Part shown: positions 1,272 to 63,360 of the stretch, one piece after another
Layout: each line of letters opens with the position of its first letter
Numbering within the stretch: position 1 is the first letter of the stretch
From: Terriglobia bacterium
GTDB taxonomy: Bacteria; Acidobacteriota; Terriglobia; 20CM-2-55-15
Length of the DNA: 64,000 bases
Direction: 5' to 3'
Assembly (NCBI GenBank): GCA_965216035.1
Contig: CBDCFM010000018.1
Coordinates: 256,134 to 320,133 of the forward strand
Notes under the pieces: model-generated
What the model saw: only the letters and a program-made list of their open reading frames with translations
Databases searched by the model: none
Told to the model about the DNA's origin: nothing
Translations under genes and position numbers: made by a program

Positions 1272-1275
1272 GACT

Positions 1276-2064: not shown

Positions 2065-2169
2065 CTGTAGTTTTTCCCTGCGCAAGATCCGACGGCTTCA
2101 CAACGTTGAATTCACGATAGGGTCTCGCTGCCTCTATTCACAAACAGGATTACGTAAGGAAGTGGCCGT

Positions 2170-2769
2170 ATGGGTCGATTGACTGTACAGACTGTGTTCT
2201 CGCTCTTTGCCGCTGTTGCCGTTCAAGCGCAGAATCCACCTGAAACACCCCCTGCCGAGGCCGGGCCCGATATCGTCCAGATGGCGGTGGAGTGGGTGGA
2301 TCGACTGAACAGGCTAGACGAGTGGACCATATCCCTGGATGGCAGGGAAACGGGAGTTGAGGAGCGTGTCGACAGTTTTATCGAACTATTTGCTCCCAAT
2401 GTGCTTGCGCAAGTACCGCCACACGATGAAAAACAGATTGGCCCGGTTCTGCTCCGCGGCAGCGATCAGCTCCGGCTATGGGTCGACAAGGTAGCAAGAT
2501 CACAAGTCGATATCGACTATAAACTCCAACTCCAGACGCAGAGTGAAATCGAAGGGGAGCCGATGGTCTACTCCAAGTCATTGCCCTGGGGCGGACTGGG
2601 TCTTTCGTTTCGAGTCAATGCAAACCATACGGCGCGTCACGACCGCACGACCTACCTGGAATACGGAGCGGTGTTCCTGCAGTATGACGAGGAAGGGAAG
2701 ATCCAGCGCATACGTCTCCTTCTGTCTGAGAAATCCGAGGTTGTTGACAGCCCGGGTGACCAGATATAG
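2170..2769 (+). CDS. hypothetical secreted protein
   Basis: 199 aa ORF with N-terminal signal peptide (MGRLTVQTVFSLFAAVAVQAQ). AGGA-like RBS (aaggaag) a few nt upstream. No recognisable domain. Confidence 0.45.
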   Translation: MGRLTVQTVFSLFAAVAVQAQNPPETPPAEAGPDIVQMAVEWVDRLNRLDEWTISLDGRETGVEERVDSFIELFAPNVLAQVPPHDEKQIGPVLLRGSDQLRLWVDKVARSQVDIDYKLQLQTQSEIEGEPMVYSKSLPWGGLGLSFRVNANHTARHDRTTYLEYGAVFLQYDEEGKIQRIRLLLSEKSEVVDSPGDQI

Positions 2770-2996: not shown

Positions 2997-3854
2997 TCAA
3001 CGACTACTCGTTCCTACGTCGATGCCCTGACTCTCTGGGCCGACCGCGGGTCTCAATACGGACTCGATATAGTCGATGGAGTCGGAGGGTACGCAGAAAT
3101 ACTCCCCAATCTCGGTTTCGGGACTCCGCAACAGGTTTCCAGTGGTCACCCACGGTTCGGTGAACGTCTTCGGGTCGGTGATCGTCAACGTGACTTCGAT
3201 TGTGTTGTAGTCCGCGCGCCTGTAGCGCTCCTCGGTCCGCAACGCATCACTGTGGGTGTATCCAAATCGGCGATCCTGCCGATTCTCGGTCAGCCATGAG
3301 CGCTCGTCGAAACCACTCGACTCTACGACGAAGGTGTCCCCCTCCCATCGGCCGACTGAGAATCCCATCCACCGTGGATCTGGATCTTCGGGAAGAGGGC
3401 GCCCGTCTGTCCAGATCGTCCGAAACGTGTGGCCCCATTCAAGGAACTGGATCACCCGGTCAGGTGCGTGAAGAAACTCGAATCCGTAGTTGTAAGTGAA
3501 CCAGCGCGGCCAGCCTTGCGGATCACAGATCAGCATGGGGTCTTTCGAATTCGAAAGCGCCTGCCCACCGGCCGTTTCCTCCGCCTGCGTGGCCTCGTAC
3601 CTCGCCTGTCCGTCCGGCGTCATAGGCGGCGCATTCCGGTTGAGTTGGATGCGGTTCTGGCCCCATACGCCCGACAGGTCACGCGGATTGAACGTCAGGT
3701 TCGCCGTCGCCCCGCGAAACGTCTCCCTGTTGGCGTTAGTCTGGCAATTTGGGCAGGTCAACCACCCGGGATACAGCTCCTGGGCCGCCGTAACAGACGG
3801 AAACGCCATTACGGCCACCAGCGCAACGATCAAACCTATAGTGCATTGTCGCAT
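2997..3854 (-). CDS. hypothetical secreted protein, family A (copy 1 of 3 paralogs)
   Basis: Signal peptide MRQCTIGLIVALVAVMAFPSVTAAQ. Shares a conserved C-terminal block (WEGDTFVVESSGFDERSWL...DPKTFTEPW) with ORFs 44737-45597 and 62613-63360. Confidence 0.6.
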   Translation of the reverse strand: MRQCTIGLIVALVAVMAFPSVTAAQELYPGWLTCPNCQTNANRETFRGATANLTFNPRDLSGVWGQNRIQLNRNAPPMTPDGQARYEATQAEETAGGQALSNSKDPMLICDPQGWPRWFTYNYGFEFLHAPDRVIQFLEWGHTFRTIWTDGRPLPEDPDPRWMGFSVGRWEGDTFVVESSGFDERSWLTENRQDRRFGYTHSDALRTEERYRRADYNTIEVTLTITDPKTFTEPWVTTGNLLRSPETEIGEYFCVPSDSIDYIESVLRPAVGPESQGIDVGTSSR

Positions 3855-3908
3855 TTCTTTTACTCCCTAATACTCCCTAATGGTAGTGTCCAACACCAAC
3901 CGCCAAAT

Positions 3909-4307
3909 CTAGTCCCCGGGTTCCCGATCCACCATGACAGTGCCGTCGGTCAGCACCATCTTGACCAGTTCACCTTGAGGCGTCCCTGCCGTAGCTGGAA
4001 TGATTGTGAATGTGCCTTCCTGTCCAGCCTGAAAGGTTCTTCTACTTAGCCCCTCGCTCATCATCGAGGTGGTGGAAGACATTTCGCCGGTCCACGCCAC
4101 AGCATTACCGTGTTCGTCGGTCACATCCCAGACAAGGTAAGTGTGCGGGTTTCGCCATCTCCATTCCGAAACAACACCCGTCATCTCGACGCGCCGGTCA
4201 GTATCGTAGATCCCCGCGCGGCCATGGTGGGCTGCGGCCAGACCCCCAAAAACGACGACCAACATCACAGCCAGCACCACCGTGGCCCAAACACGCTTGA
4301 TTCTCAT
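3909..4307 (-). CDS. small secreted protein, family B (copy 1; DUF6152-like by memory, unverified)
   Basis: 132 aa, signal peptide. Conserved AHHG...YD...TGVVSEWRWRNPHTYLVWDV motif, shared with 44129-44560 (AHHSFAAQYD...QVTELQWRNPHIYLFVDV). Lies immediately upstream of family A copy 1 on the same strand. Confidence 0.55.
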   Translation of the reverse strand: MRIKRVWATVVLAVMLVVVFGGLAAAHHGRAGIYDTDRRVEMTGVVSEWRWRNPHTYLVWDVTDEHGNAVAWTGEMSSTTSMMSEGLSRRTFQAGQEGTFTIIPATAGTPQGELVKMVLTDGTVMVDREPGD

Positions 4308-4463: not shown

Positions 4464-5468
4464 CTACTTAGGGCGCCCCATATACCCTTGAGCCAGCATC
4501 GGGATCTTGTAGATGGTCTTGGCATTGTTCCGGATGCCTTCGGCGGGCGCGAACTCCTGTCCGTTGGGCGCGAGGGCGCCTCCGGTAGTGATGTAGAGCA
4601 TCCTCTTGTCGGGTCCGGCGAAAGCAAGGCTGGCAGCATTTCGCGGTGTGGAAATCGTGCCGAGGTAGGATCCCCCCGGGCTGTACACCTGGACACCTTC
4701 CCGTTGCGTTGCGACATAAAGGCGGCTGGCTCCGTCGACAGCCAATCCGTCGCCGTTGCCGGCCTGGAGGCGTACGAAATCACGTCGATTGCCGACCGTG
4801 CCGTCCGCCCTGACGTCGAAAGCCACGATCACCTCCCGGTTCGTCGCATACAGCGTCCTTTCGTCCGGGCTGAGCGTGATCCCGTTGGAGCGGACATCGG
4901 CGTCAATGCCAACGGCTTGCCCACCATTCGGAATGTAGTAGGGCGTGCCCCCGCTGAAAAACACAGTCCCCGTCGTTGCAACCACGAGGTCATTGAGTCG
5001 CGCCAGAGGCCGGCCGTCGACGTTGTCCGCCAGGACCCGGCGCTCCCCTTCGGGATAGATGATAGATACCTTCGTTGGCTCGTCGCACGGAAGCGGTGCC
5101 CTCCCGGGGTCGGTACATGTCCGTTGAACGGCAATCAGGCGGCCTGCGGAGTCCATTCCAACGGAACCGGCTCCGTGTGTGTCCTTCACATGAGCGGAAT
5201 CGAAGTCGTTTCCGTCCAGCATCCGAATCGTACTGGGTTGCTCCTGCGCGAACAACACGTTGCCATCGGGTGTCCCCAGGATGCCGTCGGCATTGTCAAA
5301 GCCCTGCCAGGCCTGTTGCCATGTGGCCCCCGATGCGATGACGCCGGGAATCCCTTCTTCTACGGTCATGTCCCTGGGGAGTTTCTCCTGCGCTTCGGCA
5401 GGCAGGGTCAAGACGAGGGCCAATCCGCACAGGCACGATGCGATGGCGATTATTAATCTCGGTTTCAT
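4464..5468 (-). CDS. SMP-30/gluconolactonase/LRE-like beta-propeller protein, secreted
   Basis: Signal peptide MKPRLIIAIASCLCGLALVLTLPAEA. Repeated propeller-blade motifs (GITLSPDERTLYATN, DGLAVDGASRLYVAT, YITTGG). 334 aa. Confidence 0.65.
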   Translation of the reverse strand: MKPRLIIAIASCLCGLALVLTLPAEAQEKLPRDMTVEEGIPGVIASGATWQQAWQGFDNADGILGTPDGNVLFAQEQPSTIRMLDGNDFDSAHVKDTHGAGSVGMDSAGRLIAVQRTCTDPGRAPLPCDEPTKVSIIYPEGERRVLADNVDGRPLARLNDLVVATTGTVFFSGGTPYYIPNGGQAVGIDADVRSNGITLSPDERTLYATNREVIVAFDVRADGTVGNRRDFVRLQAGNGDGLAVDGASRLYVATQREGVQVYSPGGSYLGTISTPRNAASLAFAGPDKRMLYITTGGALAPNGQEFAPAEGIRNNAKTIYKIPMLAQGYMGRPK

Positions 5469-6026: not shown

Positions 6027-8474
6027 ATGAATCTCGCTTGGGCCGCTGTTTTGGGAATCTTTCTCGCCGCCCCGACGGCCTTCGGACAGTTGACCGCCCG
6101 CAACCCCGTCGACGAGTTGAAAGAACAAGTCACAAATGCGCTGGCCGATGCACGGGTACCTCTCACCTCGGATCAGGAAAGACAGTTGGCGCTGCTGATC
6201 GAAGAGGAGCGTCAGGCTGCGGAAAACCTTTTTGGCGTCACGTGGGATTTCAGTGAAGGACCGCCGCAGGGCGAACAGCGCGATCAGGCGCTGGCCGGTA
6301 TTCGCTGGATGTACGACGAACTCAAGATCAAGCTTCCTGCCTATATGACCTTGGCGCAGCGAGCCGCCTGGGAAAGCTACGAGAGCGAACGGGCCTCTGA
6401 TATTGACGACTTCCTGGACCCCGGCACTCAAAGGGGAAGAATTCAGCAGATCCGCGTGACCAACAACGCCTTCAATGTCGAGACGGCTAACGCAACCGGC
6501 GCGAGTGGCCCGACCGGTGGGGGCGCGAAAACGGAAGTGATCGAACGCGGCGGAGTGGGTGCCTTTCACGGTAGCTTTGCCTCGACGTTTCAAGACGAGT
6601 CGCTGAACGCCAGAAACCCGTTCGCCGCTAACAAGCCACCCTACTATGAACGGACAATCGACGGGAACATCAGCGGTCCCGTTATTCGCGACCGGCTCTC
6701 GCTCAACTTCACTGTGAGCGACAACAGGCGGGAGAACGTTGGGACCGTCAAGGCGGAAACTCCGGACGGGCCGTTTTCCCTCGGCGTCACCCGGCCGACG
6801 GTAAACCGATCCTACGACGTCCGGAACCTCCTGCAGCTTACCAACGCTCATTCGCTGGACATGGGTTTCCAATACGCTACGAGTGACAGCCGGAATGAAA
6901 ACGTTGGCGATTTCTCGCTACCCGAACGCGCTTCCCGCACACAATTGCGGAACCACATGATCGATATCCGGGAAATCTGGATACTCTCGGACCGAAGCGT
7001 GCATGACGTTCGCTTCAAATGGCATAGAGACCATAGCGAGACGAATCCAGCCAGCAACGCGCTGGCAATTACGGTCAAGGACGCTTTCAATGGGGGCGGC
7101 GCACAGAACCGGACACGGATTGACGGGGATACCTATGAATTGTCCAATCTGATCTACTATGCCGGTGACACGCTGACGATGCGGAGCGGGGTGCAGGCCT
7201 GGCACCGGCGCGAACGTTTTTTTTCTGAAGACAACTTCTCTGGCGAGTTCACTTTTTCGGATCTTGCGAGTTTCCGGGCAGGAAATCCGCTCAAATATAG
7301 GATTTCGTGTTGCGATCCCCTGTTTCGAATGAGCCAGACACAAGTGGCGTTCTTCTCTCAGAGCGATCTCAAGTTGACCAACACATTCACGCTGATGCTG
7401 GGTGTGCGCTACCAATTTCAAACCAACATTGGGGATCGGAATAACTTTGATCCACGGATCGGGTTCGCGTACGCGATTGGTAACGCGACTGTCATCCGCG
7501 GGGGAGTCGGGGTTTTCACTCAATGGGTCCGCGCCGACGATATTCGAAGGTTTCGTCGCGTGGATGGCGACCGACTTTATGAGATCCAGATTGACAACCC
7601 AGGGTGGCCAGACCCGTTCGCATCGGGCAGCATCCGCCCTCGATCCCGACGTGTGCTGGACCCTGACATCAGATCAGCGTACTACCTGACTTCACAGGTC
7701 ACGCTGGAGCGCAGCCTGCCCAAGAACATGTTTGTCACCTTGTCCTACGATATAAATCGCGGCCTCAGGCCGGTACGAACCCGGGACATCAATGCGCCGC
7801 TTCCGGAAACCGGCATCCGACCCTTGCCTGACCAGGGCCAGATCGTTCAACTCCAGGGAACTGGTTTGTCATTGCAGCAGCACCTCAAGGCGACCATGCG
7901 GCAACGTTTCAGCATCTTCAGTGTTACCGCAAGCTACACGTACTTCCACGGTAACTCCGACCAGGAGGTCGATGCCCGGAGGGGACGCGAATTAGCGTTG
8001 CCTGCCAATAGCTACGACCTTTCTCAGGAATGGGGGAATACCGGCCGGCCGAGCCACATGTTCGGTGCGGGCGTGAACTCGAGAATGCCCTTGGATGTTT
8101 ACCTGACCACGGCAATCCATGCGAGCAGTGGAAGCTATTACACGATCACGACCGGTAGGGACGACAACCAAGATGGTGCAATCAATGACCGGCCGCCAGG
8201 GGTTCCCAAAAATAGCGAGGTCGGGCCCCACTTCTTCGACGTCAGCTTCAACATCTCCAAGGCATTTGAATTGAACCGCGGAGGTGGCCTTCAGGGCGCA
8301 TCCAATGCGGCAGGCTCCGCGCCCCAGCTGAACGTTTTTGCCAACCTCAACAACGCGTTCAACATGACACACCCTGGAAGACCCAGCGGCGTGATGACGT
8401 CTCCCTTTTTCATGAGGTCCTTCAACGCCACCTCACCGCGTACGATCGAAGTCGGAATGCGATTCCAGTTCTGA
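6027..8474 (+). CDS. TonB-dependent receptor-like outer-membrane protein with a helical N-terminal extension (paralog 1)
   Basis: ORF track start at 5670 rejected. The signal peptide MNLAWAAVLGIFLAAPTAFGQ begins at the in-frame ATG at 6027. Plug-like motif GAFHGSFASTFQDESLNARNPF, a long beta-barrel region and a C-terminal ...RTIEVGMRFQF with terminal Phe. Close paralog of 47217-49634. Confidence 0.75.
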   Translation: MNLAWAAVLGIFLAAPTAFGQLTARNPVDELKEQVTNALADARVPLTSDQERQLALLIEEERQAAENLFGVTWDFSEGPPQGEQRDQALAGIRWMYDELKIKLPAYMTLAQRAAWESYESERASDIDDFLDPGTQRGRIQQIRVTNNAFNVETANATGASGPTGGGAKTEVIERGGVGAFHGSFASTFQDESLNARNPFAANKPPYYERTIDGNISGPVIRDRLSLNFTVSDNRRENVGTVKAETPDGPFSLGVTRPTVNRSYDVRNLLQLTNAHSLDMGFQYATSDSRNENVGDFSLPERASRTQLRNHMIDIREIWILSDRSVHDVRFKWHRDHSETNPASNALAITVKDAFNGGGAQNRTRIDGDTYELSNLIYYAGDTLTMRSGVQAWHRRERFFSEDNFSGEFTFSDLASFRAGNPLKYRISCCDPLFRMSQTQVAFFSQSDLKLTNTFTLMLGVRYQFQTNIGDRNNFDPRIGFAYAIGNATVIRGGVGVFTQWVRADDIRRFRRVDGDRLYEIQIDNPGWPDPFASGSIRPRSRRVLDPDIRSAYYLTSQVTLERSLPKNMFVTLSYDINRGLRPVRTRDINAPLPETGIRPLPDQGQIVQLQGTGLSLQQHLKATMRQRFSIFSVTASYTYFHGNSDQEVDARRGRELALPANSYDLSQEWGNTGRPSHMFGAGVNSRMPLDVYLTTAIHASSGSYYTITTGRDDNQDGAINDRPPGVPKNSEVGPHFFDVSFNISKAFELNRGGGLQGASNAAGSAPQLNVFANLNNAFNMTHPGRPSGVMTSPFFMRSFNATSPRTIEVGMRFQF

Positions 8475-13763: not shown

Positions 13764-13770
13764 TTGCTAG

Positions 13771-15632: not shown

Positions 15633-15641
15633 GGGACCTTC

Positions 15642-44128: not shown

Positions 44129-44560
44129 ATGAAGCTAGTGAAGCCAGCGTGGTCGGGTGCATTCGCCGTGGGTGCGGCCCTGTTCCTGGGAGGACTCCCC
44201 CTCGAGGCACACCATTCGTTCGCGGCCCAATACGATTCGAAGGCGCCGATCACGGTAGAAGGCCAAGTCACGGAATTGCAGTGGAGAAACCCGCACATCT
44301 ACTTGTTCGTGGATGTAGAAACCGACAGTGGCGAGGTGGAGAATTGGGCCATCGAGGGTGGCACGCCGAACAGTCTGTTCAGGAGAGGCTGGAGGAAAGA
44401 CGATCTGAAGGTTGGAGATAGCGTCAGAGTGGAGGGCTTCCGGGCCAGAGACGGGTCGAACCTCATCAACGGGCGGAACGTGACGATGCCCGATGGTCGT
44501 CGGGTCTACGGAGGTTCAGCCAACGATGGAGGTCCTACCGGGCCTGGAGGAAACAACTAG
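44129..44560 (+). CDS. small secreted protein, family B (copy 2)
   Basis: Start at MKLVKPAWSGAFAVGAALFLGG with GGAGGG RBS 5 nt upstream (the ORF track start at 44105 is in-frame). Motif AHHSFAAQYD...EGQVTELQWRNPHIYLFVDVE is shared with 3909-4307. Followed on the same strand by family A copy 2. Confidence 0.55.
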   Translation: MKLVKPAWSGAFAVGAALFLGGLPLEAHHSFAAQYDSKAPITVEGQVTELQWRNPHIYLFVDVETDSGEVENWAIEGGTPNSLFRRGWRKDDLKVGDSVRVEGFRARDGSNLINGRNVTMPDGRRVYGGSANDGGPTGPGGNN

Positions 44561-44736: not shown

Positions 44737-45597
44737 ATGAGCAAGCGTTTTTCGGTTTTAACTATTGCCGCGTGGGCACAGTTCTGCGCTTTGGTCCTCG
44801 TGGTGATCCCTGCCCAGGCGCAATTGAGTGTTCCTGGATCCGGGTTGGACGGTGCCTGGTGGTATTTGGGAGAAGCCTCTCCATCGGGACCCGTGGATAT
44901 CGGGCCCGTGGACTTCAGCGGTGTTTGGACTGGACAGACTACCAGAGACCTCTCCCAGGCCACTCTGCCGGGTGATGAAATGATCCTCACCGCATATGGA
45001 TACGAAAGATATCAGAACGTCGACCACGCGCAGGATCCCAATACGTTCTGCCTCCCCCCGGGTCCTGCCAGGATGGTCATCCGGAGGCATCCCACCATGA
45101 TTGTTCAGCGCCCCGACGTGGTCGTGATCCTCAGCGAATCTCAGTACACTTTCCGCCTGATCTATACGGATGGGCGGGATCATCCCGAATACATTCATGA
45201 GTATCCGGAATGGACGGGGCACGCGCTCGGCAAGTGGGAGGGAGACACGCTGGTTGTGGACACACTGGGCATCAATGACCGAACGTGGCTGGACATTTCC
45301 GGTCACGAACACAGTGACCAGCTGCATCTCACCGAACGATTTCGCCTGGCCGACCCAAACACGATCGAGTACACGGTGACGTATACGGATCCCGTGTTTT
45401 TCGTGAAGCCGTTTACGACGATACAGACGCTTCAGCGCGTGACGGCTCCAGACCGGATCATGTCTCATGCCTGCATGGACTACGAAAGGGACATCGAGCA
45501 CCTTCAGCCCACCATCGGCGGGACCGGCCTGGACCTAGCGGTGTACCAAGATGAAAACGGGAACATTATTCGTCCTGTGGTCGGGCCGCCAGAGTAA
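44737..45597 (+). CDS. hypothetical secreted protein, family A (copy 2)
   Basis: Signal peptide MSKRFSVLTIAAWAQFCALVLVVIPAQAQ. Conserved blocks DFSGVW, FCLPPGPARM, TMIVQRPDVVVILSE...FRLIYTDGRDHPEYIHEYPEWTGHALGKWEGDTLVVDTLGINDRTWLD and DPNTIEYTVTYTDPVFFVKPFTT parallel copy 1. Confidence 0.6.
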   Translation: MSKRFSVLTIAAWAQFCALVLVVIPAQAQLSVPGSGLDGAWWYLGEASPSGPVDIGPVDFSGVWTGQTTRDLSQATLPGDEMILTAYGYERYQNVDHAQDPNTFCLPPGPARMVIRRHPTMIVQRPDVVVILSESQYTFRLIYTDGRDHPEYIHEYPEWTGHALGKWEGDTLVVDTLGINDRTWLDISGHEHSDQLHLTERFRLADPNTIEYTVTYTDPVFFVKPFTTIQTLQRVTAPDRIMSHACMDYERDIEHLQPTIGGTGLDLAVYQDENGNIIRPVVGPPE

Positions 45598-45695: not shown

Positions 45696-46784
45696 CTACG
45701 GGGTTCTTCTCCACGCCAACTGGGCATCCATGCATTCGCCGACAACGGTCAGGTAGCGGTCGACGGCATTCCTGTTGACATAAGGATGAGGCGCGTCCGT
45801 TCCGCGGAGCCTGAATGCGCGGGCCTTCTCCGCTTCCTGATCGTAATCGGAACGGACCGAGAGAAAAACGTCCACGTCGGCCCTCGCTGCAATGTCACGC
45901 AGACGACTGGTCGAGAACCTATACGTTCTCAGGGCTTCCTCGTCACTTGAAAAATATACGACGCCTTGCTCCACAGAGTCCCAATCCCGGCCCCCAATCA
46001 GCAGGCCGACATGCCGCCGAGTGCCTTCTCTGAGGGGAACCAGAGTCGAAAGCGTGCCGGGACTGTTACCGGGCGTTACATAGAGTGTCAGCGTCGTACC
46101 CCCGAGCGTCAGCGTCTGGCCGTCCGCCACCACGAGATCCCTTCTGGGTTTGAGCCGCTCTGGAACCTCTGGCGTTGCCTCGATAACATTCCAGTCCGCT
46201 TCGGACAGCATGATCCGTGAATTGTAGCGGTCCTGAAAAAGTTTGGCCGCGCCGTAATGCCGCACATCGGGTGTGTGGATAATGACGTATTTGACGTTCG
46301 CCGGATCGAGACCCATTTATTCGAGTCCTTCGACAACGGCTTCGGCGGCGTAGTCCCTTCCCGAATTGAGCAGAATGATGCCATCGGACGTCGTCACCGC
46401 CCAGACATGGAAGACGGTGCCGACGTTGAACAGGTTGTCGAAGACCTGCACGGGCTCGACATACCATTCAGAGCGGTCCGGGACCCGTGGGTTCGCTCTG
46501 TTAGCCGGTCGGGCCGCTGGCGTTGGCTCCTGCACGGTCGGTTCCCGCTCGGTACAGAGGAGTTCGAACGTGGGTGTCAAATCGTAGAGCCCGGGTTCGG
46601 ACGCTGCGGCCCGCGCTGCGGCCACATGGGCCTCGGCTCTGACGGCTTGCGCGTTGATTTCAATTGCAGTCCAGCCGGCCAACAGAGTCGTGCCGCAGAA
46701 TAGCCATAGCACATAGCGCCCCATAGCTCGTTTCCCTCGCCGGTTCGCCAGTCTTTTCGCGGAATAGTCGAGTGTAGATTCCAT
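45696..46784 (-). pseudogene. subclass-B3-like MBL-fold protein gene interrupted by an in-frame TAA, with a degenerate His motif
   Basis: ORFs 46317-46784 (signal peptide plus ...FHVWAVTTSDGIILLNSGRDYAAEAVVEGLE) and 45696-46316 (MGLDPANVKYVIIHTPDVRHYGAAKL...) are in the same frame, separated only by TAA (46317-46319) with ATG immediately after (TAAATG). Together they align to the B3 beta-lactamase architecture. HTPDVRH replaces the HxHxDH zinc motif. Confidence 0.6.
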
Positions 46785-47216: not shown

Positions 47217-49634
47217 ATGAAATTACTTCGACTTGGATTGATCTGTATGTTCTTAACACCGTCAACCTTCGGCCAGTTGACTGCCCGAAATCCGGTCGAC
47301 GAACTGAAGGCCCATCTGGTTCTGGCCCTAGAGGAAGCACAGATCCCTCTCACATCCGATCAAGAGCAACAGTTGGCACTACTCATTGAAGAGCAACGTC
47401 AAGCTGCGGAGAACCTGTTCGGCGTGACGTGGGATTTCAGTCAGGGGCCGCCCCAGGGTGAGCAGAGGGACCAGGCCCTGGCCGGCATCCGCTGGATGTA
47501 TGACGAGTTGAATAATGGGCTTCCCGTTTACCTGACCGAGGTGCAGAGAGTCGCATGGGAGAGTTACCAGAGCGATCAGAACGTGGACTTTTATATAGGG
47601 GAGGGTTCTGCGGACGACGGTACCCAGATTGGAAGAATTCAACAGATTCGCGTGACAAACAACCCTTTCAATGTCGAAACCGGCCAGGCGAGTGGAGCGG
47701 GGCTGCGTGAAATGGGCACGAAAACAGAAGTGATCGAACGAGGCGGTGTCGGAGCCTTCCACGGCAGCCTTGCATCGACATTCCAAGACGAGTCGCTGAA
47801 TGCCCGCAATCCTTTCGCCCGCAATAAGCCACCCTACTATGAACGGACTATCGACGGAAATATCAGCGGCCCCATCATTGGAGACCGCCTCTCTCTAAAC
47901 TTCACGTTCAGCGACAATAAACAGGAGAACGTCGGCACTGTTAAGGCGGAAACACCAACTGGACCATTTTCTCTGGGCGTGACCCGGCCCGTGGTGAACC
48001 GGTCTTACGAGACCCGGGGCATACTCCGGATCGCCGACGCTCACTCGCTACACATGAGTTTCCAATACGCCACCGAAGATCGTAAGAATGAAAACGTCGG
48101 TGATTTCGCATTGCCCGAACGCGCCTCACGATCACAAACACAGGACTACATGGTCGATCTTCGCGAAATCTGGACCCTGTCCGAGCGAACCGTCCATGAC
48201 ATCCGATTTATATGGCGACAAGATCATAGCGAGACCAATCCCTTCAGTAATGCCCAAGCGATCATTGTCAAGGACGCGTTCACGGGAGGCGGGGCGCAGA
48301 ATGAGCGCCGGGTGGATGGAAATGATTACGAATTGTCCAATCTGATTTACTTTGCCGGGGATAAACTGACCGTTCGGAGTGGATTTCAGATGCTGCACCG
48401 GAGTGAACGCTCAATCTCGGAAGACAACTTCTACGGCGAATTCACGTTTTCCGACCTAAACAGTTATCGCGCTGGAACACCGCTGCACTACAGGGAGACG
48501 TGTTGCGATCCTTTGTTCGAATTGAGCCGCACACAGATCAGCCTTTTTTCTCAGAACGATTTCAGACTGTCAAACACATTCACGCTGATGCTGGGCGTAC
48601 GCTACCAGGGACAAACCAACATCAGCGATCGGGGTAATGTGGATCCACGGATCGGCTTCGCATACGCGATCGGGAATGAGACTGTCATCCGAGGCGGCTT
48701 CGGTGTGTTTTCCCAGTGGGTCAATTTCAATACGATTGCGAATACGCGTCTCGATGGGCAGCGGGTATACGAAATCCGGATCGACAATCCAGGGTGGCCG
48801 GACCCGTTCGCATCGGGCAGCATCCGGCCTCGATCCCGTCGTCAGATTGCCCCGGATATGGAAATGGCCTATTTCCCAACAGGACAAATAGGCGTGGAAC
48901 GTAGTTTTTCCAACAATCTTTTTATAACCCTGTCTTACGAGTACCTTTGGGCTTTCAAGCCAGTCCGACCACGGGACGTCAATGCGCCGTTACCAGAGAC
49001 GGGCATCAGGCCCAATCCCAACGAAGGCCAGGTTCTTCAATTCCAGAGCAGTGGCCGGTCAAAGTATGATCGTTGGAGGGCCTCACTGAGGCAGCGGTTC
49101 GGCATCTTCGTAGTCAATGCAGACTACAACTACGTACGCGGGGTCGGTGATCAGGCAGATCGGAGGGGCTTCAGAGTGTTTTCGCCTGTCGACAGCTATG
49201 ACCTTAATAAGGATTGGGGTAATACACCAAATCCGCGCCACATCTTCAGCGCAGGCGTTAATGCCAGGTTGCCATTGGATGTCTACTTGACGACAGGCAT
49301 CGAAGCACGGAGCGGTGGTTTTTACACCATCAGGACCGGGAAGGACGACAACGGGGATGGAGTGAGCAATGACCGGCCCCCCGGCGTTGTCAAAAATAGC
49401 GAGGTCGGACCGGGCTATTTCGACGTCGGCTTCAACTTCTCAAAAGCATTTGAGTTGAACTCCGGTACTGGAGCCGCCGGGCCTCAAATGAACGTCTTCG
49501 CAAATTTGAACAATGCTTTCAACATGCAACATCCAGGATTGCCCAGCGGGGTCGTGACTTCTCCGTTCTTCATGCGGTCCTTCAATGCGACCTCACCGCG
49601 CACAATCGAATTTGGAATGGAATTTCAGTTTTAG
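47217..49634 (+). CDS. TonB-dependent receptor-like outer-membrane protein with a helical N-terminal extension (paralog 2)
   Basis: Signal peptide MKLLRLGLICMFLTPSTFGQ. Colinear with 6027-8474 (QLTARNPVDELK...LTSDQEQQLALLIEEQRQAAENLFGVTWDFSQGPPQGEQRDQALAGIRWMYDEL identical or nearly so, plug motif LNARNPFA, C-terminus RTIEFGMEFQF). Confidence 0.75.
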   Translation: MKLLRLGLICMFLTPSTFGQLTARNPVDELKAHLVLALEEAQIPLTSDQEQQLALLIEEQRQAAENLFGVTWDFSQGPPQGEQRDQALAGIRWMYDELNNGLPVYLTEVQRVAWESYQSDQNVDFYIGEGSADDGTQIGRIQQIRVTNNPFNVETGQASGAGLREMGTKTEVIERGGVGAFHGSLASTFQDESLNARNPFARNKPPYYERTIDGNISGPIIGDRLSLNFTFSDNKQENVGTVKAETPTGPFSLGVTRPVVNRSYETRGILRIADAHSLHMSFQYATEDRKNENVGDFALPERASRSQTQDYMVDLREIWTLSERTVHDIRFIWRQDHSETNPFSNAQAIIVKDAFTGGGAQNERRVDGNDYELSNLIYFAGDKLTVRSGFQMLHRSERSISEDNFYGEFTFSDLNSYRAGTPLHYRETCCDPLFELSRTQISLFSQNDFRLSNTFTLMLGVRYQGQTNISDRGNVDPRIGFAYAIGNETVIRGGFGVFSQWVNFNTIANTRLDGQRVYEIRIDNPGWPDPFASGSIRPRSRRQIAPDMEMAYFPTGQIGVERSFSNNLFITLSYEYLWAFKPVRPRDVNAPLPETGIRPNPNEGQVLQFQSSGRSKYDRWRASLRQRFGIFVVNADYNYVRGVGDQADRRGFRVFSPVDSYDLNKDWGNTPNPRHIFSAGVNARLPLDVYLTTGIEARSGGFYTIRTGKDDNGDGVSNDRPPGVVKNSEVGPGYFDVGFNFSKAFELNSGTGAAGPQMNVFANLNNAFNMQHPGLPSGVVTSPFFMRSFNATSPRTIEFGMEFQF

Positions 49635-58148: not shown

Positions 58149-61100
58149 TCAGAACCTTACTTTGAGAGACGGGCGAATCGTTCTCATCGGATTGGCACTC
58201 ACCGGCCAGCCGAACTGCGTGCTGTTCAGAGACGTATTCCAGTCGGTAAAGGTCACATGGTTGAGAACGTTCGTCACATCGACACGGAAATCCAGCAATA
58301 GTCCGTCGCTCGTGCGGAACGTCCGTCCCAGAGATGCATCCAATGTGAATTGAGTCGGACCGGTGAGGGAGTTCCTGCCGGCATTGCCCCACTCGCCCGG
58401 TGGCGGAAGGGAGAACGCAGCGGAATTCAGCCGGGCTTCCCCCGTATCTGTGAACAACGGCTCACCCGTGCGGTCGGGGCGCAGACTTCCTGTCATGCCG
58501 GTTCCCTGAGCGGGAGTGGCAAGCCCGGGAGTCATCGGTGATCCGCTGGCTACGATCCATTCCGTGGTCAGTGTCCACTCGCGCAGAAGCGTCCCCAGCC
58601 AGCCAGTCGACTCGTCCCCGAGGCCGGCGAGCAGGCCGGTGGAATAGAAGGTCTGTGCGCGCATCTGGTGCCGTCGGTCGAAGTTCGACAGGGCACGCTC
58701 GGCCGCTCGGTCCTGCCAGTTCTGGGCGACATGGATGCCTCCGAGACCGGCGTCGTCGATTGCTTTGGACCAGGTGTACTGAATGTTCGTTCCCCACCCG
58801 TTCCGCTGTCGCCGCAGGAGTGCGATAGTGCCCGCATGCTGATGAGAGCTTCCGTCCGAGGCCAGGTAGACATAGCCGGACGGACAAGAGGTGCAGGCAC
58901 CTACCTGTTCACGGGGGAACGTCTGGGGCAAGATGCGCCGTGGCAGATTCGCTCCCTGCACGCCTGCATACGTGGCCGTGAGCTGGAACGCTGCAGGCAG
59001 GTCCTGCTGGAGGGACAGTTGCCAGTTCCGCGTCCGTCCCACTCGGAATTCCGGATCGACGGCAAATGTGTTGGGGATAGTCGAAGCTGCGCCGAAACCG
59101 TTCGCCAGTGTCAGGGGTGTCAACGGACCGTTCTCCATGCTCAGGCTGGTCGACAGCGGGGATTGCTGCGCCATCGCTCCGGCAATCGAATGGTAGACGC
59201 CGGCACCACGGTAGATTCCGAATCCTGCCCGAACCACCAGGGATGCCCCTGCGATCGGACGCCACGCGATACCGATGCGGGGCTGCACGTGCGTTCTGTC
59301 GGGCCGGACCAGAGAGACAGAAAAGGACTGGCTGGTCAAGGAGCCCTCGGGCCGACTGCCAAGGACCGGAGCCACAGCAGCGAATCCCGGAGCGATGTCG
59401 AGGTTTACAAGACGGCCGTACTTCTCGGTCACAGGGGATTCGTAGTCCCACCGTACTCCGATGTTGATCGTGAGCCCGGGCGTCACCCTCCAGTCATCCA
59501 TGACATAGACGTCGTAGGCCGACTGCCGAAAATACTTGTCTGGATTGCCAAAAGCAATGGAACTGGTGGTCGGAATGCCGAGCAGAAAGTCCGCGAAGTC
59601 AATGCCGCTCGCCGCGCCGGTGAAGGTGAACGTGCCCCGCGCGTTCTCCTGGGAGAGCACGTTGATCTGCTCCCTGTTCATGCCAGCCCCGAGAGTCAAA
59701 GTGTGGGCGTTTCGGGTCCACGTGCTGCTGTAGGAAAAAGCCCCTGATTGTGTCCGGTCATAGGCGGCCGGACCGTCCGACAGCCCGGCGATCCCGTCTG
59801 AAAAATCGAGGCGGGGTGGCCCCCAGTCGCGGGGTTCCTGCCCGTTGCCGCTGATTCCCGCATCACCGGATACATTGACGCGATGGGCAAACTGGGGCGT
59901 CGTCCGGGTCGATCGCCGGGTGAACGTGTACTGCGCGAACGCTGAGAAGGAGGGTGTGAACACCCGGGACCAGGAGAAACTCGAACTCAGTGTCGATGAG
60001 CGCAGTCGATCGACAAAGGAGAAGAGGTTCTGATTGTCGGCGCGGGAGCTCTGGAAGCCGAAGCTGCCGGAAAACCGATTCCCGCCGATCTCGCCACCCG
60101 TCTGAAACTGAAGGTTGTCCCGATGGGACACGCCAGGTGTCTGGGCTTGGTAGTTGTAGCCGGTGTCGACGCCTGGGTCTGGCAGTGGATAGAAATTGAG
60201 CAAGTAGGCGGCCGGAAAACTAAGCCGGTTCGGCGGTATAACGTTGCCCGGAAACGGCAAGCCCGTGTCGGGATCGATCAGGACTTCGGATCGTTCTGAG
60301 AAGTTGCCGGACCGCTCGGCCGGAGTGGGCACACGGGCCGCTTGAAGGCCGACATCCCGATTCTGCCCGCGACCATAGATCAGAGTGAAGGCAGGTCCTT
60401 GACGATCGGAGAACGGAATACCCAGCGGGCCGGATACGCTGACCAATACATCGGCGCGGTTGTGAGCCGGTTGAGGGATATTCTGCCCTGTAACAGAAAA
60501 GGGTCGGGCATCCAGTGCGGATCCGTTCGCCGCGATGTCGATATCTGCCGTGTAGAGCGAGAGTCCCCGGCTGCGGTTGTTTCCGAACTCTCTGCCCGAT
60601 CCGTCGTTGACACTGCCGTTGATGAGGAGGACTTCTGAAGCCGGATCATCGGTCTCGCTTGCGAACAGAGGATTCTGGAGAAATGTCGGGTCGACCCGGC
60701 CGTCCCGACGAGATCGGGGGACAGCGTCGAAGCCGGATATTCCTGGTGTCAGTCCATCGATAGACAGGGCCTGCAGTTCCCAAGTGGCCGCCCCGCTGTC
60801 GGGAGCGACTTTTACGTCCCGTTCCAGCTGGACGAAACCCGGCATCTCGAGGCGGACGGTCCATATGCCATCGTCCAGCCCCGGGCAGGAATAGACGCCT
60901 TCCGAGTCGGTGATCGCGCGAAACTCCGCGTGTCCACGCGCAACCCGAATCACGACCCCCGGAACCGGCACAGTACCGGCATACACGTACCCGCGATGTT
61001 CTGAGGCCGAATAGGCGGGGAGTTCAGTCGCGAGGAACAGACCGAGAACGAAGACGAGCCAGGTTTGGTGGAGCCTCACGGATGCTTTCCGGCATGACAT
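58149..61100 (-). CDS. TonB-dependent receptor with N-terminal carboxypeptidase-regulatory-like domain
   Basis: Start at MSCRKASVRLHQTWLVFVLGLFLATELPAYS (signal peptide; the ORF track start at 61169 is in-frame). CarboxypepD_reg block GTVPVPGVVIRVARGHAEFRAITDSEGVYSCPGLDDGIWTVRLEMPGF. About 900-aa barrel. C-terminus ...RPSLKVRF. Confidence 0.85.
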   Translation of the reverse strand: MSCRKASVRLHQTWLVFVLGLFLATELPAYSASEHRGYVYAGTVPVPGVVIRVARGHAEFRAITDSEGVYSCPGLDDGIWTVRLEMPGFVQLERDVKVAPDSGAATWELQALSIDGLTPGISGFDAVPRSRRDGRVDPTFLQNPLFASETDDPASEVLLINGSVNDGSGREFGNNRSRGLSLYTADIDIAANGSALDARPFSVTGQNIPQPAHNRADVLVSVSGPLGIPFSDRQGPAFTLIYGRGQNRDVGLQAARVPTPAERSGNFSERSEVLIDPDTGLPFPGNVIPPNRLSFPAAYLLNFYPLPDPGVDTGYNYQAQTPGVSHRDNLQFQTGGEIGGNRFSGSFGFQSSRADNQNLFSFVDRLRSSTLSSSFSWSRVFTPSFSAFAQYTFTRRSTRTTPQFAHRVNVSGDAGISGNGQEPRDWGPPRLDFSDGIAGLSDGPAAYDRTQSGAFSYSSTWTRNAHTLTLGAGMNREQINVLSQENARGTFTFTGAASGIDFADFLLGIPTTSSIAFGNPDKYFRQSAYDVYVMDDWRVTPGLTINIGVRWDYESPVTEKYGRLVNLDIAPGFAAVAPVLGSRPEGSLTSQSFSVSLVRPDRTHVQPRIGIAWRPIAGASLVVRAGFGIYRGAGVYHSIAGAMAQQSPLSTSLSMENGPLTPLTLANGFGAASTIPNTFAVDPEFRVGRTRNWQLSLQQDLPAAFQLTATYAGVQGANLPRRILPQTFPREQVGACTSCPSGYVYLASDGSSHQHAGTIALLRRQRNGWGTNIQYTWSKAIDDAGLGGIHVAQNWQDRAAERALSNFDRRHQMRAQTFYSTGLLAGLGDESTGWLGTLLREWTLTTEWIVASGSPMTPGLATPAQGTGMTGSLRPDRTGEPLFTDTGEARLNSAAFSLPPPGEWGNAGRNSLTGPTQFTLDASLGRTFRTSDGLLLDFRVDVTNVLNHVTFTDWNTSLNSTQFGWPVSANPMRTIRPSLKVRF

Positions 61101-61184
61101 GGCCGAACCCTGGCAATCGCGGACGTAGTGCGTCACCGGAATCGGTTCTTCCGCTGGATCTGTCGTCAACGGCGGCTCCGACGG

Positions 61185-62612: not shown

Positions 62613-63360
62613 ATGAGAGGGCTAGTTCTCGCTTTCACCGTGCTGGCGCTTATCGCAGGCAGAGAGTCGGAGCCTGTGGCGGCCCAGAGCGTGGCTTCGG
62701 GGCAGCGGACGCCGGTTCCACGCACGCCGTGGGGCGACCCCGATCTGCAGGGGCTGTGGAACTTTGGCACCAACACGCCACTTCAGCGGCCTCCGGAATG
62801 GGCCGGCCGTCAGTGGCTGACCGAGGAGGAAGTGGCGGCTGTCAACCTCGAGTGGTCGACGTTCGCGACCTCCGAGCGCCGGAGCGAGTTGACCCCGGAA
62901 TACGACCTCTCCCTCAACTCCAACCAGTTCTGGTGGGACCTCGGCACCTCGACCGGACGGACGTCGCTCGTCACCGATCCCGTGGACGGCCGGTTGCCGC
63001 CCCTGACGCCGGAGCGGCAGGCCTATGAGGCGACGCCCGAGGCGCACCGGTTGCAGGCGGTCAGATGGGGGCTTGCGCCAGCGCGCGGCTTGGAGGACTT
63101 GGAGCTCAATGACCGCTGTCTCGTTGACCGCCAAGTGCCGATTACCTCGAGCAGCGACAACAATCACGTCCAGATCCTGCAATCGCCCGGATACGTCGTC
63201 ATCCTTCTGGAAAAGATCCATGACGCCCGTATCGTCCCGGTGACCGACCAGCCCGACTTGCCCGATCAAGTCCGGCAGTGGCTGGGCGTGTCGCGCGGGC
63301 ACTGGGACGGAGACACGCTCGTCGTCGAGACGAAGAACTTCGACGCCCGAGCGGACTTCT
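62613..63360 (+). pseudogene. hypothetical secreted protein, family A (copy 3), 3'-truncated by IS256 insertion
   Basis: Signal peptide MRGLVLAFTVLALIAG. Conserved blocks (DLQGLWNF, PGYVVILLEKIHDARIV, HWDGDTLVVETKNFDAR). Homology to copies 1 and 2 stops after ...FDARADF, where the reading frame runs into IS terminal sequence (LELLSKVVFRRLIQAAV*). Confidence 0.6.

What the first reader, a model, noticed from the sequence alone, without database searches (positions are those of the whole stretch)
2997..4307. Two-gene secreted cassette (family B about 130 aa + family A about 285 aa), copy 1, next to TonB-receptor paralog 1
Family B has the motif AHH...YD...WRNPH.YL..DV. Family A has the blocks DLSGVW, FC.PPGP.R, ...IY.DGR.HPE....E..GH..GKWEGDT.VV.T.G..(D/E)R.WL, DPNTIE and T..TDP..F..P. 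They occur as an adjacent co-oriented pair here and again at 44129-45597. In both cases a lactonase/MBL-fold gene and then a paralogous TonB-dependent receptor (6027-8474; 47217-49634) lie within 2 kb. A third family A gene (62613-) lies beside another TonB receptor operon. The repeated linkage suggests a secreted accessory pair working with outer-membrane uptake (substrate capture or processing). Neither family has a function I can assign; family B may correspond to DUF6152.
Basis: partly seen in the sequence, partly recalled or inferred. Interest (0 to 1): 0.65.

Follow-up and report, generated by a model that had tools for sequence, protein, structure and literature searches.

The report
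Conserved periplasmic OB-fold plus beta-barrel protein pair
The window holds two copies of a widespread but uncharacterised two-gene unit: a small exported protein (DUF6152) with a probable metal site built on its first two histidines, next to an exported beta-barrel protein from a very large family with no database entry; the two are sometimes fused into one protein and lie beside outer-membrane receptor genes more often than chance predicts.

Summary
A1 (2997-3854, -) and A2 (44737-45597, +) are 35% identical (E 5e-35). B1 (3909-4307, -) and B2 (44129-44560, +) are 33% identical, and both are Pfam DUF6152. A3 (62613-63413) is a third A copy, cut by an insertion element.

Family A matches no Pfam or NCBIfam model and has no solved relative, yet it has over 9,000 representatives at 50% identity. 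Its model (pLDDT 89) is a 10-strand calycin-like barrel with a conserved Cys pair and a near-invariant Arg/Asp/Glu set. Family B is an OB fold. After signal-peptide cleavage it starts His-His. H36, H37 and H64 are invariant in 85 sequences at 33% median identity, which points to a metal site.

In 80 genome loci, 75 of 87 B genes sit beside an A gene. A conserved clade has B and A fused, and one MBL-A fusion exists. Receptor genes are about 10 times denser within 500 bp of A/B genes than beyond 2 kb, but only 24 of 80 loci have one within 2 kb.

Only the receptor genes are recent duplicates (69% protein identity); the pairs are old paralogues.

Best reading: a periplasmic, metal-assisted pair that captures or processes small molecules and is loosely tied to receptor-mediated uptake. 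The function is inferred, not shown.

The parts
3909..4307 (-). B1: DUF6152 protein, 132 aa. Signal peptide, then a mature N-terminus His-His (AAA|HHG), then WRNPH.
   Evidence: ORF. Pfam PF19649 at 65.3 bits. 33% identical to B2. AGGAGG lies before the ATG.
2997..3854 (-). A1: family A protein, 285 aa. Signal peptide, a subfamily CPxCQ motif, and a 10-strand calycin-like barrel with a C110/C254 pair.
   Evidence: ORF. No Pfam or NCBIfam match. 2267 homologues. AF2 model pLDDT 88.9. Foldseek best matches are CRABP/CRBP/FABP.
4464..5468 (-). SMP-30/gluconolactonase-like (SGL) periplasmic hydrolase, upstream of B1-A1 and co-oriented with them.
   Evidence: Pfam SGL E 1.3e-27. The same SGL-B-A order occurs in relative L001.
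6027..8474 (+). REC1: outer-membrane OMP_b-brl_4 / TonB-receptor-like barrel, divergent from the SGL gene. Its N-terminal 170 aa is helical, with no Plug domain detected.
   Evidence: Pfam OMP_b-brl_4 E 1e-44 and TonB_dep_Rec_b-barrel 30.9 bits. The barrel starts near residue 174. 69% identical to REC2.
44129..44560 (+). B2: DUF6152 protein (143 aa from the start at 44129). Mature N-terminus LEA|HHS, then WRNPH.
   Evidence: Pfam PF19649 at 109.5 bits. Alignment. AF2 model pLDDT 80 with an OB fold.
44737..45597 (+). A2: family A protein, 286 aa, downstream of B2.
   Evidence: 35% identical to A1, E 5e-35. Family HMM E 1e-65.
45696..46784 (-). MBL-like hydrolase gene, convergent with A2, interrupted by an in-frame TAA at 46317-46319. 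It is a probable pseudogene or a sequencing error.
   Evidence: Two abutting ORFs. TAA seen in the sequence. Neither half gave a Pfam hit at E 0.01. It clusters with MBL-type neighbours of other loci.
47217..49634 (+). REC2: paralogue of REC1.
   Evidence: 69% protein identity. 71% DNA identity, confined to the coding sequence. Pfam OMP_b-brl_4 E 7e-39.
62613..63413 (+). A3: third family A gene, lacking the C-terminal third. It has no B partner.
   Evidence: 32% identical to A1 over 120 aa. Family HMM E 1e-25. Its sequence leaves the family after 'FDAR'.
63398..63982 (-). Fragment of a Mutator/IS256-family transposase that abuts and truncates A3.
   Evidence: Pfam Transposase_mut E 2e-30, profile positions 216-365.
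58149..61169 (-). REC3: CarboxypepD_reg + OMP_b-brl_4 receptor, 1.4 kb from A3 and divergent from it.
   Evidence: Pfam OMP_b-brl_4 E 5e-137 and CarboxypepD_reg.

Best explanation
B and A are two soluble periplasmic proteins that work together as one unit.

- **A** is a 10-strand calycin-like beta barrel, the same kind of fold as fatty-acid and retinoid binding proteins. It is held by one disulfide (C110-C254). It carries a near-invariant set of charged residues (R145, D150, R152, E209, R210, D227) that I infer line a pocket for a small, probably polar or anionic, organic molecule.
- **B** is an OB-fold protein. Signal-peptide cleavage exposes His-His as its first two residues. Together with the invariant His of the NPH turn and a conserved Glu/Asp, these most likely form a mononuclear metal site. 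Copper is the best guess.

I propose that the pair captures and chemically processes, or hands over, small molecules that enter the periplasm, often through TonB-type outer-membrane barrels encoded next door. It would act alongside the periplasmic hydrolases and oxidoreductases that share its loci. In some loci it may draw on a dihaem cytochrome c.

Shown here: homology, pairing, fusion, export signals, folds, conservation, and enrichment next to receptors. Inferred: periplasmic location, the disulfide, the metal site, the ligand pocket, and any activity.
For: **Pairing**
- 75 of 87 B genes are adjacent to an A gene in 80 genome loci.
- Array types are BA 29, AB 12, BAA 6 and ABA 5.
- B-B-A-TonB receptor forms a tight co-directional run in the cultured Croceibacterium atlanticum.

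**Fusions**
- P0151 and nine further clusters (65-87% identical to it, 369-387 aa, from several sources) carry DUF6152 and A in one chain, with no second signal peptide.

**Export**
- Both proteins have Sec-type signal peptides.

**The site in B**
- H36, H37, P63 and H64 are 100% conserved, N62 99%, E84 95% and D44 91%, in 85 sequences of 33% median identity.
- 85 of 86 B sequences have [A/S/G]|HH straight after the hydrophobic signal region.
- B models as an OB fold.

**A**
- The model has pLDDT 88.9 and pTM 0.83.
- Foldseek gives CRABP/CRBP/FABP, streptavidin and lipocalins at probability up to 0.99 and TM up to 0.59.
- C110 is 98% conserved, R145 97%, E209 98%, D227 97%, W170 98% and G164 100% over 238 sequences. 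Values are the same in paired and solo A genes.

**Context**
- Receptor density is 13 per 100 kb within 500 bp of A/B genes against about 1.3 per 100 kb beyond 2 kb, p 7e-6.
- Immediate neighbours are dominated by receptors, MBL, amidohydrolases, SGL/NHL propellers, PQQ dehydrogenases, esterases and inner-membrane transporters.
- One MBL-A fusion, P0130, exists.
- A dihaem cytochrome c lies next to B-containing arrays in 6 of 6 cases, against 0 for A-only arrays. It recurs in L083 and in one JGI locus.
Against: - No ligand, metal or activity has been observed.
- I had no model coordinates. I could not check that the conserved A residues face the barrel interior, or that the B histidines are close together.
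- Foldseek E-values for A are weak (about 0.01). Calycin barrels are mostly binders, not enzymes.
- About half of the A genes have no adjacent B (71 of 140 arrays hold A genes only, 60 of them a single A). A can therefore probably act alone or with B in trans.
- Only 30% of loci have a receptor within 2 kb. The receptor next to copy 1 is missing from a close relative.
- Neighbouring genes are very heterogeneous, so no single pathway emerges.
- The cytochrome association rests on 6 to 8 cases and was noticed after the fact.
Confidence: 0.45

Rival explanations
1. Periplasmic metal trafficking. B is a metallochaperone (Cu, Zn, Ni or Fe) that receives metal imported through the adjacent TonB-type receptor, or that loads the neighbouring metallo-hydrolases (SGL, MBL, amidohydrolase, PQQ dehydrogenase). 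A is its docking or storage partner.
For: - B has an invariant N-terminal His-His plus His plus Glu/Asp.
- B is an OB fold like the periplasmic chaperones CusF and CcmE. CcmE is among the Foldseek hits. The CusF fold comes from my own knowledge.
- Many neighbours are metal-dependent enzymes.
- Paired small membrane proteins (DUF6644) recur next to the arrays.
Against: - A has no conserved His or Met. Its only conserved Cys residues look like a disulfide pair.
- Both families are heavily expanded, with up to 8 A and 5 B genes in 20 kb. That is unusual for metal homeostasis.
- Half of the A genes lack a B.
- No metal-sensing regulators or P-type ATPases turn up among the neighbours.
Confidence: 0.2
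2. Pure carrier. A is a non-catalytic periplasmic shuttle for hydrophobic or amphipathic substrates, a functional analogue of FABP or lipocalin, running between the outer-membrane receptor and inner-membrane transporters or periplasmic enzymes. B is only a lid or adaptor, and its histidines are structural.
For: - A has a calycin-like fold, and its best matches are carboxylate-binding iLBPs.
- Receptors are enriched next to A arrays with or without B.
- MFS, DctM, SDF and permease genes occur among the neighbours.
- A is fused to a hydrolase (P0130), or carries a C-terminal DUF3471, a domain also found at the end of the beta-lactamase-type hydrolase encoded upstream of the B-B-A genes in L085.
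Against: - Six charged residues are near-invariant across paralogues that share only 30-35% identity. That is more typical of a catalytic or cofactor site than of carriers tuned to different ligands.
- Three histidines are absolutely conserved in B.
- The cytochrome c association is specific to B-containing arrays.
Confidence: 0.25
3. The A/B pair is real, but its position next to receptors in this window is incidental. Acidobacterial genomes are crowded with OMP_b-brl_4 receptors and with A/B paralogues, so neighbours arise by chance and the pair has nothing to do with uptake.
For: - 70% of loci have no receptor within 2 kb.
- The receptor next to copy 1 is not conserved in relative L001. The MBL and REC2 next to copy 2 are not conserved in L095 or L096.
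- Only the receptor gene was duplicated here.
Against: - The distance-decay test within the same loci controls for genome-wide receptor density and gives a tenfold enrichment at p 7e-6.
- The association holds in two phyla and with two different receptor types. Classical Plug plus barrel receptors flank A/B in Proteobacteria, in 9 of 18 proteobacterial loci by my count from the record titles and gene maps. Co-directional runs occur in Croceibacterium and Sphingobium.
- All three receptors in this 64 kb window lie within 2 kb of an A gene.
Confidence: 0.15

Closest known systems
Intracellular lipid-binding proteins and lipocalins (calycin superfamily: CRABP, CRBP, FABP)
   Same: Family A models as a 10-strand antiparallel meander barrel. 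Its best structural matches are CRABP2/CRBP1/FABP-type chains (probability up to 0.99, TM up to 0.59 on the target). It has conserved Arg residues, as iLBPs do for binding carboxylates (the iLBP point is from my own knowledge).
   Different: No sequence relationship is detectable: Pfam, PDB phmmer and profile searches are all negative. A is twice the size, with a 120-aa N-terminal region and a C-terminal helix. It is exported, has a Cys pair, and is bacterial. Foldseek E-values are only about 0.01.
Pfam DUF6152 (PF19649)
   Same: B1 and B2 are members, at 65 and 110 bits against a 27-bit cutoff. NCBI annotates relatives as 'DUF6152 family protein'.
   Different: The family has no described function and no paper mentions it in the library searched. 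I found no source that describes the N-terminal His-His/NPH/Glu site, the OB fold or the partnership with family A.
Histidine-brace copper proteins (LPMOs, CopC, PmoB, X325; mono-His brace YcnI)
   Same: The first residue after signal-peptide cleavage is an invariant histidine, and a second invariant histidine lies elsewhere in the chain. That is the sequence signature of a brace (definition from PMC10952591, abstract seen). The proteins are exported. A redox partner, cytochrome c, is sometimes adjacent.
   Different: The fold is OB, not an Ig-like or cupredoxin-like sandwich. There are two consecutive N-terminal histidines plus Glu/Asp. Copper binding and coordination geometry are untested.
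Periplasmic OB-fold chaperones CusF (Cu/Ag) and CcmE (haem)
   Same: They are small exported OB-fold proteins that carry a metal or cofactor using His. CcmE is among the Foldseek hits. The CusF fold is from my own knowledge.
   Different: There is no sequence similarity. B lacks the Met/Trp site of CusF and the C-terminal HxxxY of CcmE (own knowledge). B is soluble rather than membrane-anchored, and it is paired with a barrel protein.
Accessory proteins of TonB-dependent transporters (for example SusD-like lipoproteins)
   Same: They are encoded next to outer-membrane receptor genes and are highly paralogous in substrate-scavenging bacteria.
   Different: A and B are not lipoproteins and have unrelated folds. 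Adjacency to a receptor is facultative (30% of loci), not obligate. Their likely location is the periplasm rather than the cell surface.

Membership tests
Pfam DUF6152 (PF19649) | Score above the curated gathering threshold of the family HMM (27 bits) | tested here: met
   B1 scores 65.3 bits over residues 18-112. B2 scores 109.5 bits over residues 32-119.
Pfam DUF6152 (PF19649) | Family-wide motifs A|HH, NPH and a conserved Glu | tested here: met
   Both window proteins carry them. In 85 sequences H36, H37, P63 and H64 are 100% conserved, N62 99% and E84 95%.
OB fold | Small closed beta barrel matching solved OB domains | tested here: met
   AF2 model with core pLDDT 89-97. Foldseek hits PriB, SSB, the LysRS N-domain and CcmE at probability 1.0, E about 1e-3, TM up to 0.67 on the target.
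Calycin superfamily (lipocalin / FABP / avidin) | 8-10 strand antiparallel meander barrel | tested here: met
   The AF2 model has ten consecutive strands between residues 125 and 243. The top 30 Foldseek hits are almost all iLBPs, plus streptavidin and SAHS. Support is only moderate, at E about 0.01-0.1.
Calycin superfamily (lipocalin / FABP / avidin) | Sequence membership in a lipocalin or FABP family model, or a relative among solved structures | tested here: not met
   No Pfam or NCBIfam hit at E 0.01 or better. PDB phmmer's best hit is RBP2 at E 0.9. The profile search of the PDB gives 0 hits at E up to 10.
Histidine-brace copper proteins | Histidine as the first residue of the mature, exported protein | tested here: met
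   85 of 86 B sequences have [A/S/G]|HH straight after the hydrophobic signal region, consistent with the -1/-3 rule. The cleavage site is predicted, not measured.
Histidine-brace copper proteins | Cu bound by the N-terminal NH2, the His1 side chain and a second His, in a T-shaped geometry | not testable with these tools
   An invariant second or third His exists (H37, H64). No coordinates or metal data were available.
Histidine-brace copper proteins | Ig-like or cupredoxin-like beta-sandwich fold of the known families (LPMO, CopC, PmoB) | tested here: not met
   B is an OB fold. It is therefore not a member of those families. A convergent brace is not excluded.
TonB-dependent transporter (the adjacent REC1 and REC2) | Large outer-membrane barrel domain | tested here: met
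   OMP_b-brl_4 at E 1e-44 and 7e-39. TonB_dep_Rec_b-barrel at 30.9 bits (above the 27-bit cutoff) for REC1 and 25.3 bits (below it) for REC2.
TonB-dependent transporter (the adjacent REC1 and REC2) | N-terminal Plug domain with a TonB box | tested here: not met
   No Plug or CarboxypepD_reg hit even at E 1. The barrel profile starts at residue 174, and residues 1-173 are unassigned.
Obligate receptor-accessory operon (SusC/SusD-like logic) | The accessory gene is always adjacent to a receptor gene | tested here: not met
   24 of 80 loci have a receptor within 2 kb. The association is enriched but facultative.

The most novel reading that the evidence does not exclude
DUF6152 is a new class of exported metalloprotein. 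It would carry a histidine-brace-like (probably copper) centre on an OB fold instead of the usual beta sandwich. With the calycin-like A barrel as its substrate-holding subunit, it would form a previously unrecognised two-component periplasmic oxidase or peroxygenase, fed by dihaem cytochromes c. The system is expanded into dozens of paralogues in Acidobacteriota, Steroidobacteraceae and sphingomonads, where it would attack diverse small organic substrates.
Probability: 0.2. Interest if true: 0.85.

Novelty: new variant of a known kind. Interest (0 to 1): 0.58.

Why it matters
- Family A has more than 9,000 cluster representatives at 50% identity. It has no Pfam or NCBIfam model, no structure and no name. 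It is one of the larger blank spots in soil-bacterial proteomes.
- Pairing, natural fusion and the invariant N-terminal His-His of DUF6152 together give two uncharacterised families a concrete, testable hypothesis: a metal site plus a ligand barrel in the periplasm.
- If the pair handles substrates that enter through TonB-type receptors, it would fill a gap. Little is known about what happens in the periplasm between outer-membrane import and catabolism in Acidobacteriota, whose receptor repertoires are very large.
- If B is a histidine-brace-like centre on an OB fold, it would widen the known structural range of that chemistry.
- Cultured hosts carry compact operons (Croceibacterium atlanticum 26DY36, Novosphingobium humi), so experiments are feasible.

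Tried and rejected
1. **Segmental duplication of the whole block.** Rejected. blastn finds similarity only across the receptor coding sequences. The receptors are 69% identical, against 33-35% for A and B.
2. **P0115 (394 aa, DUF6152 + A) as a fusion.** Rejected as evidence. The A part keeps its own signal peptide, so this is probably a frameshift or read-through of two adjacent genes. The P0151 clade is the valid fusion.
3. **Homology between A and DUF3471, or between A and B.** hhalign gives probabilities of 0.2% and 8%, so there is none.
4. **Relatives among solved structures, by sequence.** None for A or for B, with single sequences or with profiles.
5. **Literature.** DUF6152, PF19649 and the WEGDTLVV motif each return zero papers.
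6. **Promoter and terminator scans around both cassettes.** Counts are at background level and uninformative.
8. **Do paired and solo A genes differ at key residues?** They do not.
9. **Is the 488-aa gene at the receptor's position in relative L001 a receptor homologue?** It is not.
10. **First receptor HMM.** It missed the classical Plug-type receptors. They were added after Pfam confirmation.
11. **First locus scan.** The 75-sequence alignment was too diverse to derive search patterns. A 16-sequence alignment worked.
Full report
**1. What is in the window**

The finding's coordinates hold two co-oriented ORFs on the minus strand. B1 lies at 3909-4307 (132 aa) and A1 at 2997-3854 (285 aa). 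They are 54 nt apart and each is preceded by an SD-like sequence.

A second pair lies on the plus strand: B2 at 44129-44560 and A2 at 44737-45597. The longer ORF for B2 starts at 44105, but the homologues start at the Met of 44129.

A third A gene, A3, lies at 62613-63413. The paralogy is well above chance:

| Pair | Identity | E-value |
|---|---|---|
| A1 vs A2 | 35% over 239 aa | 5e-35 |
| A1 vs A3 | 32% over 120 aa | 7e-12 |
| B1 vs B2 | 33% over 95 aa | 3e-15 |

A family HMM finds exactly three A and two B genes in the window. A3 leaves the family consensus after 'FDAR', where a Mutator/IS256-type transposase fragment (63398-63982, -) abuts it. A3 is therefore a truncated copy.

**2. Family B**

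- Both B proteins are members of Pfam DUF6152, at 65 and 110 bits against a 27-bit cutoff. No paper in the searchable library mentions the family.
- In 85 family members taken from independent genomes, with a median pairwise identity of 33%, H36, H37, P63 and H64 are 100% conserved (B2 numbering). N62 is 99%, E84 95% and D44 91% conserved.
- In 85 of 86 sequences the His-His follows a signal-peptide hydrophobic region that ends in A, S or G. The mature protein should therefore begin His-His.
- The AF2 model has a core pLDDT of 89-97 and is an OB fold. Foldseek matches PriB, SSB, the LysRS anticodon-binding domain and the haem chaperone CcmE at probability 1.0 and E about 1e-3.
- An invariant N-terminal histidine together with another invariant histidine is the sequence signature of the copper histidine brace (definition in PMC10952591). 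But the fold here is not the beta sandwich of the known brace families.
- I infer a mononuclear metal site. Neither the metal nor the geometry could be tested.

**3. Family A**

- A1, A2 and A3 match no Pfam or NCBIfam model. They have no relative among solved structures, by sequence or by profile.
- The family is very large. There are 2,267 hits in the 90%-identity clusters and 9,014 representatives at 50% identity with E up to 1e-3. Every hit that carries a source name is called 'hypothetical protein'.
- RefSeq also calls the protein 'hypothetical' in the cultured Novosphingobium humi and Croceibacterium atlanticum, next to a 'DUF6152 family protein'.
- The AF2 model is confident (pLDDT 88.9, pTM 0.83). 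It has ten consecutive beta strands between residues 125 and 243, preceded by a partly helical N-terminal region and followed by a C-terminal helix.
- The best Foldseek matches are cellular retinoic-acid, retinol and fatty-acid binding proteins, streptavidin, SAHS proteins and lipocalins (probability up to 0.99, TM up to 0.59 normalised to the target, E about 0.01).
- Conservation over 238 sequences:

| Residue (A1 numbering) | Conservation |
|---|---|
| G164 | 100% |
| C110 | 98% |
| W170 | 98% |
| E209 | 98% |
| R145 | 97% |
| D227 | 97% |
| R210 | 92% |
| D150 | 90% |
| R152 | 89% |
| C254 | 89% |

- The Cys pair in an exported protein suggests a disulfide. The invariant charged set suggests a common binding or catalytic site. 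Both are inferences, because I had no coordinates.
- The A1 subfamily also has an N-terminal CPxCQ motif.

**4. A and B belong together**

I fetched 80 loci from GTDB species genomes using a conserved A peptide. Most are from Acidobacteriota (Bryobacterales, Terriglobia, Vicinamibacterales, Acidiferrales). Others are from Steroidobacteraceae, other Gammaproteobacteria and sphingomonads.

- Together with the window and loci L001 and L002, they hold 173 A and 87 B ORFs. Of the B genes, 75 lie within 500 bp of an A gene on the same strand.
- Among the 140 arrays in the 80 loci, a single A occurs 60 times, BA 29, B alone 13, AB 12, AA 10, BAA 6 and ABA 5. There are larger clusters of up to 8 A and 4-5 B genes in 20 kb.
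- Natural fusions exist. P0151 and nine further 90%-identity clusters (65-87% identical to it, 369-387 aa, from JGI, Logan and ENA data, two paralogues in one 3.45 Mb contig) carry DUF6152 followed by A in a single chain with one signal peptide.
- A different apparent fusion, P0115, keeps a second signal peptide. I discount it as a read-through.
- About half of the A genes have no adjacent B. Their key residues do not differ from those of paired A genes. A is therefore the core, and B is a frequent but not obligatory neighbour.

**5. Link to receptors and other neighbours**

In the window:
- Copy 1 sits next to an SGL/SMP-30 lactonase (4464-5468, same strand) and a divergent OMP_b-brl_4 barrel, REC1 (6027-8474).
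- Copy 2 is convergent with an MBL-like gene (45696-46784) that has an in-frame TAA. That gene is in turn divergent from REC2 (47217-49634).
- REC1 and REC2 are 69% identical. DNA similarity is confined to their coding sequences. The block was therefore not duplicated as a unit. Two old A/B paralogues each ended up beside a copy of a recently duplicated receptor gene.
- Neither receptor has a detectable Plug or CarboxypepD_reg domain. The barrel profile starts at residue 174.

Across the 80 loci, I combined OMP_b-brl_4-type receptors (found with an iterated HMM) with classical Plug plus barrel receptors confirmed by Pfam.
- Receptor density is 13 per 100 kb within 500 bp of an A/B gene and about 1.3 per 100 kb beyond 2 kb.
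- Of 37 receptors, 20 lie within 1 kb, a zone holding 20% of the sequence (p 7e-6).
- Only 24 of 80 loci have a receptor within 2 kb.
- Receptors flank arrays with and without B equally often (8 vs 9).
- The syntenic locus of a close relative keeps SGL-B-A-199aa-FGE-DUF1501 but has an unrelated gene where REC1 sits (L001; its A protein is 86% identical to A1). Relatives of copy 2 keep B-A but not the MBL or REC2.
- In Croceibacterium atlanticum, B-B-A-TonB receptor forms a tight co-directional run.

Other recurrent neighbours are periplasmic hydrolases and oxidoreductases: MBL, amidohydrolases, SGL/NHL propellers, PQQ and GSDH dehydrogenases, carboxylesterase, tannase, beta-lactamase plus DUF3471, cupins and glyoxalase. 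There are also inner-membrane transporters and pairs of small DUF6644 membrane proteins.
- One protein, P0130, is an MBL-A fusion. Several A proteins carry a C-terminal DUF3471.
- A dihaem cytochrome c (two CxxCH motifs, CytoC_RC-like) lies next to B-containing arrays in 6 of 6 cases and next to A-only arrays in none. It appears again in two further loci. The numbers are small and the test was made after the fact.

**6. Interpretation**

- The firm conclusion (about 0.9) is that B and A are a functionally coupled, exported pair. Together they form a widespread, uncharacterised module.
- My best mechanistic reading (0.45) is a periplasmic, metal-assisted unit that captures or processes small molecules. 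A supplies the pocket and B supplies a metal centre. The unit works in catabolic neighbourhoods and is often, though not always, downstream of TonB-type import.
- Within that reading, I cannot separate catalysis (favoured by the invariant charged residues, the three invariant histidines and the cytochrome link) from simple carriage (favoured by the calycin fold and the transporter context).
- The rivals are metal trafficking (0.2), a purely non-catalytic carrier (0.25) and incidental receptor adjacency (0.15).
- The pair is not a member of the lipocalin/FABP families or of the known histidine-brace families. Defining features of each were tested and not met (no sequence membership; a different fold). 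Working like them remains open.

**7. Novelty and score**

- B is a catalogued DUF. A is uncatalogued. The pairing, the fusion, the N-terminal His-His site and the receptor enrichment are, as far as these tools show, undescribed.
- Both folds are common and the function is inferred, so I rate this a new variant of a known kind (periplasmic accessory proteins linked to outer-membrane uptake), with interest 0.58.
- The more radical reading, a brace-like metal centre on an OB fold working with a barrel subunit as a new periplasmic oxidase, gets probability 0.2.

Noticed in passing
window 45696-46784 (-), stop at 46317-46319: The MBL-like gene next to A2 is split by an in-frame TAA (...VVEGLE*MGLDP...). 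Where the HxHxDH motif is expected it reads HTPDVRH. It is probably a pseudogene, or a sequencing error combined with a degenerate active site.
   Followed up: partly
window 6027-8474 (+) and 47217-49634 (+): The two paralogous 'TonB receptors' (69% identical) have an OMP_b-brl_4 barrel that starts near residue 174, but no Plug or CarboxypepD_reg domain. Their N-terminal 170 aa is a helical region with an LTSDQE.QLALLIEE motif, resembling the periplasmic LTXXQ (Spy/CpxP) family. The Pfam LTXXQ hit is not significant (E 0.67).
   Followed up: partly
window 62613-63982: A3 is truncated by a Mutator/IS256-family transposase fragment on the opposite strand. The insertion element continues towards the end of the window.
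   Followed up: partly
window 39117-40823 (+): A 568-aa protein combines an N-terminal TIR_2 domain with a TonB C-terminal domain. This is an unusual architecture: a TIR domain joined to a TonB-like periplasmic anchor.
   Followed up: no
window 3861-3880 (- strand): The 10-nt sequence TTAGGGAGTA occurs twice in tandem in the B1-A1 spacer, just before the A1 start codon. This duplicates the SD-like GGGAG.
   Followed up: no
window 78-2769, and L001 11078-15998: Copy 1 is flanked by a 199-aa exported protein of unknown family, an FGE-sulfatase-like gene and a DUF1501 gene. The order is conserved in the Terriglobia relative, where a PSCyt2/PSD1 gene and a CarboxypepD_reg receptor follow.
   Followed up: partly
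L005, L009, L015, L054, L071, L083 (for example L054 12911-14134): A 360-440 aa dihaem cytochrome c (two CxxCH motifs, CytoC_RC-like N-terminus, and in the one copy scanned, from L054, a DUF6544-like C-terminus) recurs directly beside B-containing arrays and never beside A-only arrays (6 vs 0).
   Followed up: partly
L027, L031, L034, L047, L069, L071, L093 4113-5088: Pairs of small DUF6644 membrane proteins (about 125-170 aa, weakly DUF2214-like) recur next to A/B arrays in both Acidobacteriota and sphingomonads. They could be an inner-membrane partner.
   Followed up: no
A1 residues 35-38 (window about 3741-3752, -): The A1 subfamily has an extra N-terminal W..CP.CQ motif (a CxxC) that is absent from A2, A3 and most of the family. 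It could be a second disulfide, a redox motif or a metal motif.
   Followed up: no
window 12831-16661 (-) and 56124-58145 (-): There is a MoxR-type AAA_3 ATPase with VWA-domain genes. Next to REC3 there is a 673-aa protein with only a sub-threshold VWA_2 match (E 0.005). I read this as ordinary acidobacterial context, noted only for orientation.
   Followed up: no
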